Virus record (IMG/VR): IMGVR_UViG_3300042691_038938
DNA length: 64,000 bases
From: a virus
Lineage: Duplodnaviria > Caudoviricetes
Reading direction: 5' to 3' (one strand)
The stretch's first letter is position 1. Every line of letters begins with the position of its first letter. Below, in pieces: positions 52,022-54,878 of the stretch. The notes below the pieces were generated by a model. That model made no database searches. It was not told the DNA's origin and worked only from the letters and a program-made list of their open reading frames with translations. Position numbers and translations under genes: made by a program.

Positions 52022-52348
52022 TTATTGTGCTTCTACTGGGATAGCTGCTTCCAGTTCTGCTATGAATTCCTCAAGAATCGTTGCGTCCACTTCTGAGATC
52101 TTAACTAAAAATGAAGTCTCAGCAGTAGTATCCTCTGCTCTAACTCCTAAATATCGAACTGACTCTCCATTAAAGATGTGGATAACATGATAGTCAGTAA
52201 GAGTCACATCTTCAGGTTTAAAAGTCTTGACATGGTCAACTAGAGCAGTAAGTTTAGTCATGGTGTCAGCTTTTATTGTACCTTTTTTCTCTCCGATAAG
52301 CTGAACATCCCCAAATCCAAAAACATGGATAGTATTAAATTTTGCCAT
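52022..52348 (-). CDS. Hypothetical protein
   Basis: 108-aa ORF between GATAAATA (52365-52372) and a terminator. Confidence 0.7.
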   Translation of the reverse strand: MAKFNTIHVFGFGDVQLIGEKKGTIKADTMTKLTALVDHVKTFKPEDVTLTDYHVIHIFNGESVRYLGVRAEDTTAETSFLVKISEVDATILEEFIAELEAAIPVEAQ

Positions 52349-52386
52349 TTTGAAAGTTTTTTATTATTTATCTTAAACTAAAATAA

Positions 52387-52411
52387 AAAAGGACTCAGCA
52401 AGAGTCCTTTT
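52387..52411 (-). terminator. Rho-independent terminator of the zinc-ribbon gene
   Basis: AAAAGGACTC-AGCAA-GAGTCCTTTT with an A run giving a U tail on the minus strand. Confidence 0.85.
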
Positions 52412-52433
52412 CCTAGAGCCTGACGGGCAAAAT

Positions 52434-53192
52434 TTATACTTTAGTTCCGCAGTTAGGGCAGAACTTCCAGCTGGATTTTTTAAGACGCGAGCCGCAATCA
52501 GTGCAGTAGTTTCTAATCTCTTTAAGATCGACTGGTTTTTTGGACTCTGGCAAGATCCTGATAAAGACTGAATTGCTTGCCCAGAAATTATATTCTGAGT
52601 TGTCCTGACCGAATTCTTGGTCAGAAGACTCTCCCTTCTCAGTTCGGCCAGTCTCAAGGGATCCTGCGATCGGCATTGAAGAGGTGACCATTGACGAGTT
52701 TGCCCCAATGACATCGTTCAGTGAAAAACCTAAAGTAGGATTAGAATTAGAATAGTAGACTGTGTTGACTGTTGATCCGCCGAATGGAGGATATGAGTCA
52801 TGCGTCCAAGTAGTATTGAACCCACCTGTCAGCTTGATGAATTCATCATAAAACTCTATTTTTACTCTACCGTTTTCTCTAGTTGCCTCCTTCGATTCAG
52901 CTGAGTTCTCGACTTCATAAGTCTCAAAGATAAACTTTTTTGGCTCATCGATCCATCTTTCTAAAAAGACTCTCTGGCCAGGTTTCACCACGATTCCAGT
53001 CGATGAAATAAGTTTTTCATCGATGTAGATCTTGGCAAGCACCTTTGATTTTTTGGGATTGTAAAGCTCTATCTCAAAGTGAGTCCCGTCTTTAAGATAG
53101 ACTTTGTTATCGTATTGTTTCATACGATTTCTGTTCACTGCAATGTGTGCAGTAGGAGACAGTGAGTCCCCTTTAATTGATGTGTAATTCAT
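52434..53192 (-). CDS. Conserved phage protein with C-terminal zinc ribbon
   Basis: GIVVKPGQRVFLERWID..KF.FETYEV; C-terminal YCTDCG...WKFCPNCGT. Confidence 0.8.
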   Translation of the reverse strand: MNYTSIKGDSLSPTAHIAVNRNRMKQYDNKVYLKDGTHFEIELYNPKKSKVLAKIYIDEKLISSTGIVVKPGQRVFLERWIDEPKKFIFETYEVENSAESKEATRENGRVKIEFYDEFIKLTGGFNTTWTHDSYPPFGGSTVNTVYYSNSNPTLGFSLNDVIGANSSMVTSSMPIAGSLETGRTEKGESSDQEFGQDNSEYNFWASNSVFIRILPESKKPVDLKEIRNYCTDCGSRLKKSSWKFCPNCGTKV

Positions 53193-53212
53193 AATTTACC
53201 TGTTTTTTTAAA

Positions 53213-53283
53213 GCCGACATCATCGTGGGTCAACCCACTCAAAAGCCACTAGGACTTGATGCCGACTGGAGTGTCAGGCTCTA
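53213..53283 (-). promoter_or_regulatory. Candidate structured 5' leader RNA (pseudoknot-like)
   Basis: GUCGGCAUCA/UGAUGUCGGC 10-bp helix with two G-U pairs (minus strand only), GUGGG-UUGA-CCCAC hairpin, AGAGCC/GGCUUU crossing helix. Confidence 0.55.
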
Positions 53284-53411
53284 TTGATATTTACTCTAAT
53301 TTAGGTAAAAGTTTTTGGGTTAGGAGGTTACTGCTCTCTAGTTTATCTGCTATTTCTGATCCCTAGGTCCAAGCTTATGAGTCCTTCCTAGCTTCTTTAA
53401 AGTTGGCATTG

Positions 53412-54878
53412 TTAGCTATTGAGTCTAAGCCAAGCGCTAAAGGACACGTTTAGTCCCTCTCCCAAGTACTTCTTACGTAATCGATCAGCTTTATCAATGT
53501 CTCCTTTCAAATAGGCATCAATGATCGCATCTTGTATCTCGTCCTGGCTCATCTCGCTTTCAACATCCGGCTCAACATCCGGCTCAACCTCTTGAGTCGG
53601 CATCTCGTATCGAGGTTCCTCCTCTTTAGATTGGTCACCATATTTAGACTGTGCTTCAAGGTTGGCTAGTGCTTCTTCAATTATGGGATAAAATAATCTT
53701 TCGATACCTGATTTATCATTCATCAAGATTGCATATACAATCTTAAGCATTTCCTTAGGGTCATCTTTACCAGTCGTTGCAAGCATTCCAAATACCATCC
53801 AATAGAGACGTTGTTCCTCTGCCGCGAGGTCATTCCATATCGAATCGACATTCTCTCCTGTTTCTCGGTCCATTTCGCGTCGATAGCTAGAAAACCTCTC
53901 TTCAACTTCCGGATGAGAGTTGATTGCTTTACGAAAATCGTTCTGCATGTCAGTGCCGTACTTAAACTCTTCAGCTTCATCAAGTAGAGTATCAGTGTTC
54001 ATTATCACCTGTTCTGCCTCATCTTCTGAAAGGTGCTCAGTGCTTAGCTGTACTGGAAGAACGTAGACTGCTTTGATCGCTTCATGGATAAGAACTGAGA
54101 GATCAACTCCCCTAGCAAATATCTTCATCTCAAGGTCTGCCATTAACTCTTCAGCTGAGTCGCTTTCAGTAAAGTCCTTTCCTTTTTCAAGATCGTCTAA
54201 CATCTTCTTAGCTGCGTCTTCGTCTGGCTTTTTATCTCCAAAATCAATCATATTGACCCCAGCTCCAGACATCTTCAAGTAGGTCTTTATCTGGTTATCT
54301 GGTAATCTCCAATCATTGAATTGAGCCACTGCTGAGATCTTATTCAAGAGCTTAAGATATTCTTCACCGTCGGTTTTTCCTAGTATTGTCTTGATTCCAG
54401 ACTTGAACATAGGTAGATTTAGAATCGCTTTAGAATTCAATCCCATTCCCTGCTGAAGCGTCTTTAAGATCTTTCTCTTGTGGATCTCATTAATTATCTT
54501 ACGATTAACGATTTCCTCGACGTTAGGCTGTTCAGGTTCCTCTGGAGTCATTGATCCCATTGATCGTGCCTCATCACCTATCTTAAAATCGAATTCAACA
54601 TCATCAAGCAGACCCTTGAATATGAATCTAAATGAAGAAACAGTCAGGTCAGATAACGCGTCCTCGTGCCCTGATTGAAGTGCTTTTGATTTGCCAATAA
54701 GCCCCATGAAATTACTAAGGTCTTCACGATTTTCCATGGCAAATCTTGCCATTTTAGGATCCTTTTCCGCTTTGACCTTCGCTAACCATGAAGGATCATT
54801 GGACTCTCCTTCTCCTGGAATTCCGATGTTTCCTCTAAGGGAAGCCTCATTGATATAGTCTTCGAAATTATTTAACAT
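53412..54878 (-). CDS. Hypothetical protein, putative internal head protein
   Basis: MLNNFEDYINE; LIHE motif; C-terminal VSFSAWL. Confidence 0.75.
   Translation of the reverse strand: MLNNFEDYINEASLRGNIGIPGEGESNDPSWLAKVKAEKDPKMARFAMENREDLSNFMGLIGKSKALQSGHEDALSDLTVSSFRFIFKGLLDDVEFDFKIGDEARSMGSMTPEEPEQPNVEEIVNRKIINEIHKRKILKTLQQGMGLNSKAILNLPMFKSGIKTILGKTDGEEYLKLLNKISAVAQFNDWRLPDNQIKTYLKMSGAGVNMIDFGDKKPDEDAAKKMLDDLEKGKDFTESDSAEELMADLEMKIFARGVDLSVLIHEAIKAVYVLPVQLSTEHLSEDEAEQVIMNTDTLLDEAEEFKYGTDMQNDFRKAINSHPEVEERFSSYRREMDRETGENVDSIWNDLAAEEQRLYWMVFGMLATTGKDDPKEMLKIVYAILMNDKSGIERLFYPIIEEALANLEAQSKYGDQSKEEEPRYEMPTQEVEPDVEPDVESEMSQDEIQDAIIDAYLKGDIDKADRLRKKYLGEGLNVSFSAWLRLNS

What the first reader, a model, noticed from the sequence alone, without database searches (positions are those of the whole stretch)
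52414..53283. One gene enclosed by an 11-bp inverted repeat joining its 5' leader to its 3' end
Seen: TAGAGCCTGAC at 52414-52424 and its exact complement GTCAGGCTCTA at 53273-53283 flank the zinc-ribbon gene. On the minus-strand transcript, UAGAGCCUGAC is the start of the structured leader and GUCAGGCUCUA sits between the stop codon and the terminator hairpin. Both copies are intergenic, in GC-richer patches of otherwise AT-rich spacers. Inference: the mRNA ends can pair across about 850 nt and compete with the leader fold, giving end-to-end control or a processing/circularisation stem. Terminal repeats of a mobile cassette are an alternative.
Basis: partly seen in the sequence, partly recalled or inferred. 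Interest (0 to 1): 0.7.

Follow-up and report, generated by a model that had tools for sequence, protein, structure and literature searches.

The report
End-paired phage mRNA, Y-shaped leader
The 11-base inverted repeat is real and, though no more than chance would give on its own, it is the local form of a conserved RNA helix that ties the first bases of a late phage message to the bases just after its stop codon, beside a conserved Y-shaped leader: a rare "closed" bacterial-type mRNA whose purpose is still inferred.

Summary
Both arms are exactly where stated. Alone the pair is not significant: the window holds 28 exact 11-mer inverted pairs against 29±7 expected. Comparison changes the verdict. 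In 47 of 56 distinct homologous loci, the bases just upstream of the leader pair with bases 3-14 nt after the stop codon. At least nine sequence versions exist, they track the protein tree, and many changes are compensatory.

The 5' arm starts about 5 nt after a T4-type late-promoter box and abuts a conserved three-way-junction leader. That leader is absent from Rfam, 95% paired, and 19 of 20 pairs covary. It occurs once per locus, always before this gene, and also in huge phages and weakly in Lak megaphages.

Clades with a long helix (about 15-32 bp) nearly always lack an intrinsic terminator. Clades with a short helix or none, including this window, usually have one.

Best reading: an RNA clamp that buries the 5' end and defines or protects the 3' end of a late monocistronic mRNA. 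The structure is well supported; the function is inferred. A mobile or invertible DNA cassette and a translation switch are not supported. The scan has noted this same architecture on other DNA (e1-5322297, e1-5408313).

The parts
53288..53295 (-). Late-promoter-like box AGTAAATA (6 of 8 matches to T4 TATAAATA). Predicted +1 is the A at 53282, 5 nt after the box.
   Evidence: NTAAATA boxes are enriched in intergenic DNA (34 of 84 in 13% of the window). 25 of the 34 lie 1-96 nt upstream of a same-strand gene start, mostly 7-28 nt. The box-to-AGAGCC spacing of 5 nt is identical across clade A. The TSS is inferred, not measured.
53273..53283 (-). 5' arm of the long-range helix P0 (RNA UAGAGCCUGAC), at the predicted 5' end of the mRNA.
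   Evidence: I11. Conserved in clade A. Homologous arms with other sequences occur in other clades.
53213..53266 (-). Three-way-junction leader. P1 is 53257-53266 with 53213-53222. P2 is 53253-53256 with 53244-53247. The joiner is UUGA. P3 is 53233-53238 with 53225-53230. The second joiner is GA.
   Evidence: 77.6 bits, the only convincing hit in the window; one hit in each of 84 sources; 95.1% of cells paired, 19 of 20 pairs with changes on both sides, covariation 0.769 against 0.274 shuffled. No Rfam family matches.
53193..53212 (-). A-rich linker and ribosome-binding site (AGGU at 53198-53201).
   Evidence: Read directly. A similar A-rich stretch with AGGU/AGGA precedes the ATG in most clades. 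Predicted accessibility is 0.41 with or without the 3' arm.
52434..53192 (-). ORF of 252 aa: beta-sandwich domain, disordered Ser/Thr/Asn-rich linker, second beta segment, C-terminal zinc ribbon. Function unknown.
   Evidence: (Zn_Ribbon_1, E = 1.9e-5, just under the curated cut-off). (1295 homologues, all unnamed). (AF2 model, pLDDT 77). Searches gave no informative match.
52414..52424 (-). 3' arm of P0 (RNA GUCAGGCUCUA). It starts 9 nt after the stop codon and ends directly at the foot of the terminator stem.
   Evidence: P0 is in the MFE of the 906-nt transcript; pairing probability 0.99.
52385..52413 (-). Intrinsic terminator (12-bp stem, 5-nt loop, U-run).
   Evidence: Every clade A locus has a terminator here, with a different stem sequence.
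52364..52372 (-). Late box GATAAATAA of the next gene (108 aa, 52022-52348). It marks the end of the unit.

Best explanation
The repeat is the two strands of an RNA helix (P0) in a late, monocistronic phage mRNA. Transcription is predicted to start at a T4-type late promoter box, so the 5' arm is the first 10-11 nt of the message. Directly after it comes a conserved three-way-junction leader, then an open A-rich ribosome-binding region, then the 252-codon ORF. Nine nt after the stop codon the 3' arm pairs back to the 5' end, and the terminator hairpin follows at once. The message is therefore closed end to end. The 5' terminus is buried in a helix that can stack on P1 of the junction, and the 3' end is a double-helical block. 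The most likely function is to define and protect both mRNA ends. That means shielding the 5' end from 5'-end-dependent RNases and providing the 3' stabilising or end-forming structure. In relatives with a 15-32 bp helix, P0 does this job instead of a terminator. Shown: the helix, its conservation and covariation, its fixed place, the junction, and the inverse relation with terminators. Inferred: the transcription start, the effect on stability, and the nuclease involved. My odds are about 0.9 for the structure and about 0.5 for the end-protection or end-definition function.
For: The helix is significant in 47 of 56 distinct loci (z < -3, with 0-2 of 200 shuffles reaching the observed energy). 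Its 5' arm ends 0-5 nt before P1 and its 3' arm starts 3-14 nt after the stop.

In a joint alignment, 67.4% of cells pair against 51.0 +/- 1.6% for shuffled locus pairings (0 of 500). Double-change cells number 298 against 155 +/- 15 (0 of 500). The 13 core columns are about 87% paired.

Arm-sequence groups equal well-supported protein clades, so the arms are inherited with the gene.

Strand evidence: the adjoining junction has near-invariant G.U pairs that work only on the sense strand. P0 mismatches lean towards sense G.U (36 against 20 overall; 26 against 8 in loci with a clear helix).

P0 is in the MFE and has probability 0.8-1.0 in full-length folds of every P0 clade, and 0.99 in the window.

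Within clade A the arms stay invariant at 57-83% protein identity (61-84% in the alignment), while the neighbouring terminator stem and P2/P3 change by compensation.

A late-type box sits 5 nt before AGAGCC. This gene has an exceptional 96-nt leader, against 7-28 nt for most other late genes.

Terminators: 2 of 31 distinct long-helix loci (clades B, C, D, E, F, H) have a local terminator, against 22 of 25 loci with a short helix or none. The standard scanner found none in four long-helix representatives. The contrast recurs in three sister comparisons: A/B, D against I+J, and L086 against the other megaphages.

Where P0 is absent, either a small local hairpin (clade J) or P1 itself (megaphages) follows the promoter box directly. 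Either would keep the 5' end base-paired.

RNase E action is 5'-end dependent, as cited in the T4 review PMC3014915. A 14-bp 5'/3'-UTR pairing modulates RNase cleavage of B. subtilis hbs mRNA (PMC5737220).
Against: No transcript ends are known, so the start site rests only on promoter-box spacing.

The window's helix is only 10-11 bp and is not significant by itself.

The unconstrained MFE of the 906-nt RNA keeps P0 but refolds the leader. The junction rests on covariation and local folding, not on the global MFE.

The terminator relation has exceptions: L072 and L056 have a long helix plus a terminator, and L050 and L052 have a short helix with none found. It rests on few independent contrasts.

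An invariant C-C/G-G centre and strong sequence conservation within clade A hint at sequence-specific recognition, which a purely protective helix does not explain.

Host and host RNases are unknown.
Confidence: 0.6

Rival explanations
1. P0 is an RNase III-type processing stalk, like those flanking 16S/23S rRNA or the T7 early mRNAs. Read-through transcripts are cut in the helix, releasing a mature message whose two ends stay paired.
For: In clades B-F the helix is about 15-32 bp with small internal loops or bulges, a usual size for RNase III substrates (established knowledge). It is not followed by a terminator, and the next late box starts about 41-43 nt after the stop. Without a cut, transcripts would run into the next gene.
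Against: In the window's clade the helix is only 10-13 bp, too short for canonical RNase III, and a terminator already makes the 3' end. No cleavage data exist. This overlaps with the best explanation (end definition) rather than excluding it.
Confidence: 0.2
2. P0 is a translation switch. The 5' arm (GCCUG) first masks the ribosome-binding site (CAGGU). Once the 3' arm is transcribed it captures the 5' arm and frees the site, so only full-length messages are translated. This is hok-like logic in reverse. A variant: the closed loop places the stop codon beside the start for ribosome recycling.
For: In nascent-leader folds of WIN, L081 and L006 the arm core pairs with the AGGU region around the junction, and L035 does likewise. 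The stop-to-arm distance of 3-14 nt puts a terminating ribosome at the foot of P0, with the start codon 14-36 nt from P1.
Against: Predicted accessibility of the ribosome-binding site is the same with and without the 3' arm in clade A (0.41 and 0.41 in the window). It rises only modestly in clade C. Clades B, E, F and G have no arm-to-RBS complementarity. The site lies in an A-rich, mostly open stretch in all clades.
Confidence: 0.1
3. The repeat acts at the DNA level, as the ends of an invertible segment or the terminal inverted repeats of a mobile gene cassette.
For: Exact inverted repeats flank one gene. Neighbouring genes differ between clades and even within clade A.
Against: All 84 sources show the same order: box, 5' arm, leader, ORF, 3' arm. 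None is in the flipped state. There is one copy per locus and per window. The arms co-diverge with the protein. Arm positions are fixed relative to RNA features, namely P1 and the stop codon. Mismatches lean towards sense-strand G.U. No direct repeats flank the arms: the outside bases are TATCAA and GGAAAA. None of the seven neighbouring ORFs has a recombinase or transposase domain.
Confidence: 0.03
4. The pair in this window is a chance match with no function.
For: The number of exact 11-mer inverted pairs in the window equals the random expectation.
Against: The same 11-mer pair sits at the same two places in 12 clade A loci (L001-L007, L021, L081-L083, L085); L084 keeps only 10 of the 11 bp. 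These loci share 57-83% protein identity with the window's gene (61-84% in the alignment). Other clades have different but complementary arms at the same places.
Confidence: 0.02

Closest known systems
B. subtilis hbs mRNA 5'/3'-UTR interaction (Braun, Durand and Condon 2017, PMC5737220; abstract read)
   Same: A roughly 14-bp long-range pairing between the 5' UTR and 3' UTR of one bacterial-type mRNA with a structured leader. It acts on ribonuclease access rather than on the ribosome-binding site.
   Different: The hbs case is a single host gene shown by experiment. Here a phage gene family has about nine covarying helix versions, the 5' arm is at the predicted first nucleotide, a conserved three-way junction abuts the helix, and long versions replace the terminator. 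No experiment exists here.
hok mRNA tac/fbi fold-back of hok/Sok loci (summarised in PMC9841398)
   Same: The extreme 5' end pairs with the 3' end of the full-length mRNA, giving a closed and stable form. Conservation is by covariation.
   Different: In hok the closed form hides the mok ribosome-binding site and blocks the Sok antisense RNA, and 3' trimming opens it. Here the ribosome-binding site is predicted open in both states. There is no antisense partner, and the product is a 252-aa zinc-ribbon protein, not a small toxin.
S. aureus icaR 5'-3' UTR pairing (PMC3868564; title and abstract seen)
   Same: A 3' UTR segment pairs with the 5' UTR of the same mRNA.
   Different: The icaR 3' UTR pairs with the Shine-Dalgarno region to block translation and invite RNase III. 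Here the pairing is with the 5' terminus, upstream of the junction, not with the ribosome-binding site.
RNase III processing stalks of rRNA operons and T7 early mRNAs (established knowledge, recalled, not read here)
   Same: Leader and trailer sequences pair across the whole product. The long versions (about 15-32 bp) have a suitable size.
   Different: These enclose rRNA or sit between cistrons. The window's version is 10-11 bp and stands next to a normal terminator. Cleavage is untested.
5'-terminal stem-loop stabilisers such as the ompA leader, and 5'-end dependence of RNase E (Mackie 1998 and 2000, cited in PMC3014915)
   Same: A base-paired 5' terminus is expected to hinder 5'-end-dependent decay. 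Clade J has a local 5' hairpin, and in the megaphages P1 is itself terminal, in place of P0.
   Different: Here the partner strand lies about 850 nt away, behind the stop codon, instead of in a local hairpin.

Membership tests
mRNAs with long-range 5'/3'-UTR pairing (hbs, icaR, hok type) | Complementary segments in the 5' UTR and the 3' UTR of the same gene | tested here: met
mRNAs with long-range 5'/3'-UTR pairing (hbs, icaR, hok type) | Pairing maintained in evolution (conservation or compensatory change) | tested here: met
   47 of 56 loci. Shuffled-pairing control, 0 of 500. Arms follow the protein tree.
mRNAs with long-range 5'/3'-UTR pairing (hbs, icaR, hok type) | Both arms lie on one transcript (start upstream of the 5' arm, end downstream of the 3' arm) | tested here: inconclusive
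   The promoter box and terminator predict it. The RNA runs gave no information on ends.
mRNAs with long-range 5'/3'-UTR pairing (hbs, icaR, hok type) | Pairing changes mRNA decay, processing or translation | not testable with these tools
   Needs reporters or RNA half-life measurements.
hok-type fold-back (tac/fbi) | The closed form sequesters the ribosome-binding site | tested here: not met
   Accessibility is 0.41 without and 0.41 with the 3' arm in the window, and similar in clade A.
hok-type fold-back (tac/fbi) | Small membrane toxin ORF plus an antisense RNA partner | tested here: not met
   The product is a 252-aa soluble-looking beta-sandwich and zinc-ribbon protein. No antisense unit was seen on the + strand.
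RNase III processing stalk | Helix of about two turns (20 bp or more) formed by sequences flanking the product | tested here: not met
   The window has 11 bp. The feature is met in clades B-F (about 15-32 bp).
RNase III processing stalk | Staggered double-strand cleavage in the helix | not testable with these tools
   Needs an enzyme assay or end mapping.
Invertible DNA segment (Hin/Gin/Cin type) | Both orientations occur in populations or relatives | tested here: not met
   0 of 84 sources are in the flipped state. No joints were seen in the laid contigs (very sparse data).
Invertible DNA segment (Hin/Gin/Cin type) | Site-specific recombinase gene adjacent | tested here: not met
   Seven neighbouring ORFs have no recombinase domain in Pfam or PHROGs.
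Transposon or MITE with terminal inverted repeats | Several copies in a genome, target-site duplication, transposase | tested here: not met
   Only the two arms occur in the window. The leader model hits once per locus. The bases outside the arms are not direct repeats.
Any Rfam family (riboswitch, ribozyme, leader) | Covariance-model match to the leader or arms | tested here: not met
   No hit at gathering score in the window. No hit at E <= 10 in 53193-53300.
T4-type late transcription unit | TATAAATA-like box about 6 nt upstream of the start | tested here: inconclusive
   AGTAAATA here, and a genome-wide (A)GATAAATAA box before 25 genes. The window has a T4-type portal and a family-B polymerase. 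The gp55/gp33 genes and the start site were not examined.

The most novel reading that the evidence does not exclude
The long-range helix is a split 3'-end-forming element. Pairing of the nascent 3' arm with the transcript's own 5' end does the job of a terminator hairpin. It either stops RNA polymerase (several clades have a U-rich run right after the 3' arm) or fixes the mature 3' end. In that case the end of this message would be set only on RNAs that carry its own 5' end. A further untested variant is that the paired ends are cut and ligated into a circular mRNA.
Probability: 0.18. Interest if true: 0.85.

Novelty: new variant of a known kind. Interest (0 to 1): 0.68.

Why it matters
Conserved pairing between the two ends of a bacterial-type mRNA is known from only a handful of single genes (hok, icaR, hbs). 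Here a whole family of uncultured large phages supplies dozens of natural sequence variants of such a clamp. It comes with a new, well-supported three-way-junction RNA motif and a natural series in which the clamp trades places with an intrinsic terminator. The protein family has over a thousand members and reaches the Lak megaphages, where the leader is kept but the clamp is not. Together these make a long-standing question testable: what do closed mRNA ends do for stability, 3'-end formation or ribosome recycling in bacteria? They also offer a compact candidate module (about 95 nt 5' plus about 25 nt 3') for stabilising engineered messages.

Tried and rejected
1. Significance within the window alone: rejected. 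There are 28 pairs against 29.4 +/- 7.1 expected, and the motif with one mismatch gives 3 hits against 1.07 expected.

2. DNA similarity to deposited phages: no match. No whole genome is held for the window.

3. Rfam at gathering and at E <= 10: nothing on the leader or arms.

4. RNA evidence. One run search and one lay of four riverine metatranscriptome runs gave only five contigs of 151-181 nt inside the ORF (52441-52797). There were no ends, joints or loose ends. This says nothing about the start, the end, circular junctions or expression level.

5. Anti-Shine-Dalgarno switch: suggested by the nascent folds but not borne out by accessibility calculations or by other clades.

6. Hammerhead or other small-ribozyme reading of the junction: the joiner lengths (0, 4 and 3 nt) and sequences do not fit the hammerhead core. 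This was judged by eye; Rfam is silent.

7. Long-range terminator with a U-tract as a general rule: U-rich runs follow the 3' arm in clades D, F and part of C, but not in B or E (read). It is kept only as the novel case.

8. Protein function. Pfam, PHROGs, PDB sequence and profile searches, Foldseek against the PDB, and the ESM Atlas gave only the zinc ribbon and generic beta-sandwich resemblance.

9. Synteny as a test of mobility: neighbours are recognisable only within clade A, so it is uninformative beyond that.

10. The second exact 11-nt inverted pair in the region (52336-52346 with 52426-52436, I10) pairs the stop region with the start of the next ORF. L001 has a different start sequence for that gene, so I treated it as chance.

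Full report
OBSERVATION. The window reads TAGAGCCTGAC at 52414-52424 and GTCAGGCTCTA at 53273-53283 (inverted pair I11). No further exact copies exist in the 64 kb. The pair flanks a minus-strand ORF of 252 aa (52434-53192). One arm sits 9 nt after the stop codon and directly before an intrinsic terminator (52385-52413). The other sits in the 219-nt spacer upstream of the ATG. The description is correct.

By itself the pair is unremarkable. The window contains 28 exact 11-mer inverted pairs spaced 50-1000 nt apart, against 29.4 +/- 7.1 in Markov-1 simulations. A second exact 11-nt pair lies in the same 2 kb.

CONTEXT. The window comes from a large T4-like phage. It carries a T4-type portal, a family-B DNA polymerase fragment, a helicase and an asparagine synthase. 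It has no match among deposited phages at DNA level, and no host genome is held. The ORF has only a C-terminal zinc ribbon by Pfam, just under the curated cut-off. It has 1295 unnamed homologues.

An AlphaFold model (pLDDT 77) shows a beta-sandwich, a disordered Ser/Thr/Asn-rich linker, a second beta segment and the ribbon. There is no informative match in the PDB or the Atlas. The protein's function is unknown.

COMPARATIVE TEST OF THE REPEAT. Eighty IMG/VR loci and five assembly loci encode homologues at 39-83% identity. The longest exact complement between 150 nt upstream and 80 nt downstream of the gene averages 10.6 nt within a locus, against 7.7 nt between loci. The complementary words differ between groups of loci.

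I anchored the analysis on a covariance model of the leader. The 5' arm then ends 0-5 nt before leader helix P1, and the 3' arm begins 3-14 nt after the stop. The duplex is stronger than shuffled controls (z < -3; 0-2 of 200 shuffles) in 47 of 56 distinct loci.

I placed the 5' zones and the reverse complements of the 3' zones in one alignment. There, 67.4% of cells pair, against 51.0 +/- 1.6% when loci are re-paired at random (0 of 500). Double-change cells number 298 against 155 +/- 15 (0 of 500). The 13 core columns are about 87% paired, with pair types such as U-A/A-U/G-C at single columns and an invariant C-C/G-G centre.

The arm-sequence groups (A to J) coincide with well-supported clades of the protein tree, so the arms are inherited with the gene. 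In the window's own clade the two arms are invariant down to 57-63% protein identity. Meanwhile the adjacent terminator stem and the leader hairpins change by compensation.

THE LEADER. Between the 5' arm and the ATG lies a conserved three-way junction: P1 (9-10 bp), P2 (4-5 bp), a UUGA/UAGA joiner, P3 (6 bp) and a 2-3-nt joiner. Model R1 finds exactly one copy in each of 84 sources, always directly upstream of this gene. It finds only one convincing copy in the window (53194-53298, 77.6 bits). On 58 distinct sequences, 95.1% of cells pair and 19 of 20 pairs change on both sides. The covariation score is 0.769, against 0.274 shuffled and 0.29 or less for slid partners.

Several near-invariant G.U pairs work only on the sense strand. 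This fixes the strand of the RNA and, by adjacency, of P0. P0's own mismatches also lean towards sense G.U (36 against 20; 26 against 8 where the helix is clear), but related sequences make this only moderate support. Rfam has no such family.

DEEP RELATIVES. The only named relatives are uncultured megaphages (LR7565xx and the Prevotella Lak phages, 30-41% identity). The junction is found upstream of the gene there too: 57, 41, 33 and 29 bits in the LR records, and 19 and 17 bits, at the right place, in Lak. P0 is present only in the closest of them (L086, z = -4.9). In the others examined (L087-L090), P1 follows the promoter-like box directly and an ordinary terminator follows the gene. The junction is thus the wider and probably older feature, and P0 is an elaboration within a large subgroup.

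TRANSCRIPT ANATOMY (INFERRED). A T4-type late box, here (A)GATAAATAA, is three-fold enriched in intergenic DNA. It precedes 25 genes, mostly by 7-28 nt. The zinc-ribbon gene has a weaker box (AGTAAATA, 53288-53295) and an exceptional 96-nt distance. In every clade A locus the box ends exactly 5 nt before AGAGCC. By the T4 rule (TATAAATA centred near -10; PMC3014915, plus general knowledge) this puts +1 at the A of AGAGCC (53282). The 5' arm would then be the first 10 nt of the RNA. Other clades have late-like boxes 2-6 nt before their arms, and in a few loci a tRNA gene ends there instead.

THERMODYNAMICS. In full-length transcripts of 900-1040 nt, P0 is part of the MFE and has pairing probability 0.8-1.0 in all P0 clades, and 0.99 in the window. 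The unconstrained MFE of the window RNA refolds the leader. With the junction enforced, the energy is -276.2 against -284.0 kcal/mol and all 11 P0 pairs remain. P0 and the junction are therefore nested and compatible, not competitors. In the nascent leader the arm has weak alternative partners: GGCUUU after P1, or the AGGU of the ribosome-binding site.

WHAT IT DOES. A translation switch is not supported. Predicted accessibility of the ribosome-binding site is unchanged by the 3' arm in clade A (0.41 and 0.41 in the window) and rises only modestly in clade C. Several clades have no arm-to-site complementarity.

A more telling pattern concerns the 3' end. Of 31 distinct loci with a long helix (about 15-32 bp; clades B, C, D, E, F, H), only 2 have an intrinsic terminator within 130 nt. 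Of 25 loci with a short helix (10-14 bp; A, G, I) or none (J, L057), 22 have one. The standard scanner found none in four long-helix representatives. The contrast recurs between sister groups: A against B, D against I+J, and L086 against the other megaphages. There are exceptions (L072, L056, L050, L052).

Where P0 is missing, either a small local hairpin (clade J) or P1 itself lies directly after the promoter box, and so probably at the 5' end. I therefore read P0 as an end clamp. It buries the 5' terminus, which should hinder 5'-end-dependent decay (Mackie, cited in PMC3014915). It also supplies the 3' protective or end-forming structure. In the long versions this could work through RNase III processing or even termination.

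My odds are about 0.9 for the structure, about 0.5 for end protection or definition, about 0.2 for RNase III processing specifically, about 0.1 for translation control or ribosome recycling, 0.03 for a DNA-level repeat and 0.02 for chance. The invariant GNGCC/GGCNC centre and the conserved G.U pairs of the junction suggest an unidentified binding partner. The encoded zinc-ribbon protein is an obvious but untested candidate.

DNA-LEVEL ALTERNATIVES. No source shows the flipped orientation. The unit is single-copy. No direct repeats flank the arms. No recombinase or transposase domain is found in the seven neighbouring ORFs. The arms are positioned relative to RNA features, not to gene borders of the neighbours, which vary.

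COMPARISON WITH KNOWN SYSTEMS. The closest analogue is the 14-bp 5'/3'-UTR pairing of B. subtilis hbs mRNA, which modulates RNase Y access (PMC5737220). The hok tac/fbi fold-back (PMC9841398) shares the end-to-end geometry but not the hidden ribosome-binding site, the antisense RNA or the toxin. icaR (PMC3868564) pairs its 3' UTR with the Shine-Dalgarno region. A review of T4 post-transcriptional control contains no long-range case.

This is a new variant of a known kind. It is a family-wide, covarying clamp at the very ends of a phage late message, joined to a new three-way-junction motif and interchangeable with a terminator. The scan has noted the same architecture before on other DNA (e1-5322297 and e1-5408313). 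Those are unchecked AI notes, but their reading agrees with what I derived independently here.

LIMITS. No transcript ends, structure probing or functional data exist. The RNA runs held only a few read-length contigs inside the ORF. Start codons and helix borders in divergent loci are computational calls. The terminator relation rests on few independent contrasts.

Noticed in passing
window 52434-53192 (-); model mb7aba52e26b0: The predicted fold of the zinc-ribbon protein matches uncharacterised proteins of eukaryotic large DNA viruses in BFVD at E = 1e-10 to 1e-3. These include pithovirus, marseillevirus, mimivirids, iridovirus ICP-18, nudivirus, baculovirus P22.2 and white spot syndrome virus wsv390. 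The best hit is a 'SHOCT domain' protein of an uncultured marine phage (E = 1e-19). There is nothing in the PDB.
   Followed up: no
window 52378-53283 (-): The whole 906-nt predicted transcript folds far better than its shuffles (-284 against -227 +/- 7 kcal/mol, z = -7.9, 20 shuffles). The coding part may also be unusually structured.
   Followed up: no
L064, L069, L050, L062 (about 100 nt upstream of the gene): In some relatives a tRNA gene (GGTTCGAATCC T-arm) ends a few nt before the 5' arm instead of a late box. There the 5' end of the message may be made by tRNA processing.
   Followed up: no
window-wide, e.g. 52364-52372, 55188, 46511, 40674, 26910, 17056: A late box (A)GATAAATAA precedes 25 genes, typically 16-28 nt before the ATG, giving very short leaders. 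The zinc-ribbon gene, with 96 nt, is the clear outlier.
   Followed up: partly
window 52336-52346 and 52426-52436: A second exact 11-nt inverted pair links the stop-codon region of the zinc-ribbon ORF to the first codons of the next ORF (108 aa). L001 has a different start sequence there, so it is probably chance.
   Followed up: partly
window 53560-53583: An exact tandem duplication of 12 nt (TCAACATCCGGC x2) lies inside the upstream 488-aa ORF, giving a repeated VEPD peptide.
   Followed up: no
L081 against window 52022-52348: The closest relative with flanks (83% identity) lacks the 108-aa gene that follows the cassette in the window, and goes straight to the 208-aa gene. This is a small gene gain or loss right after the terminator.
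   Followed up: no
L089, L090 (Prevotella Lak phages) and L086-L088, L091: The gene family and its leader junction reach the 460-735 kb megaphages. In the Lak phages the model scores are weak (17-19 bits) but at the right place with compatible pairs.
   Followed up: partly
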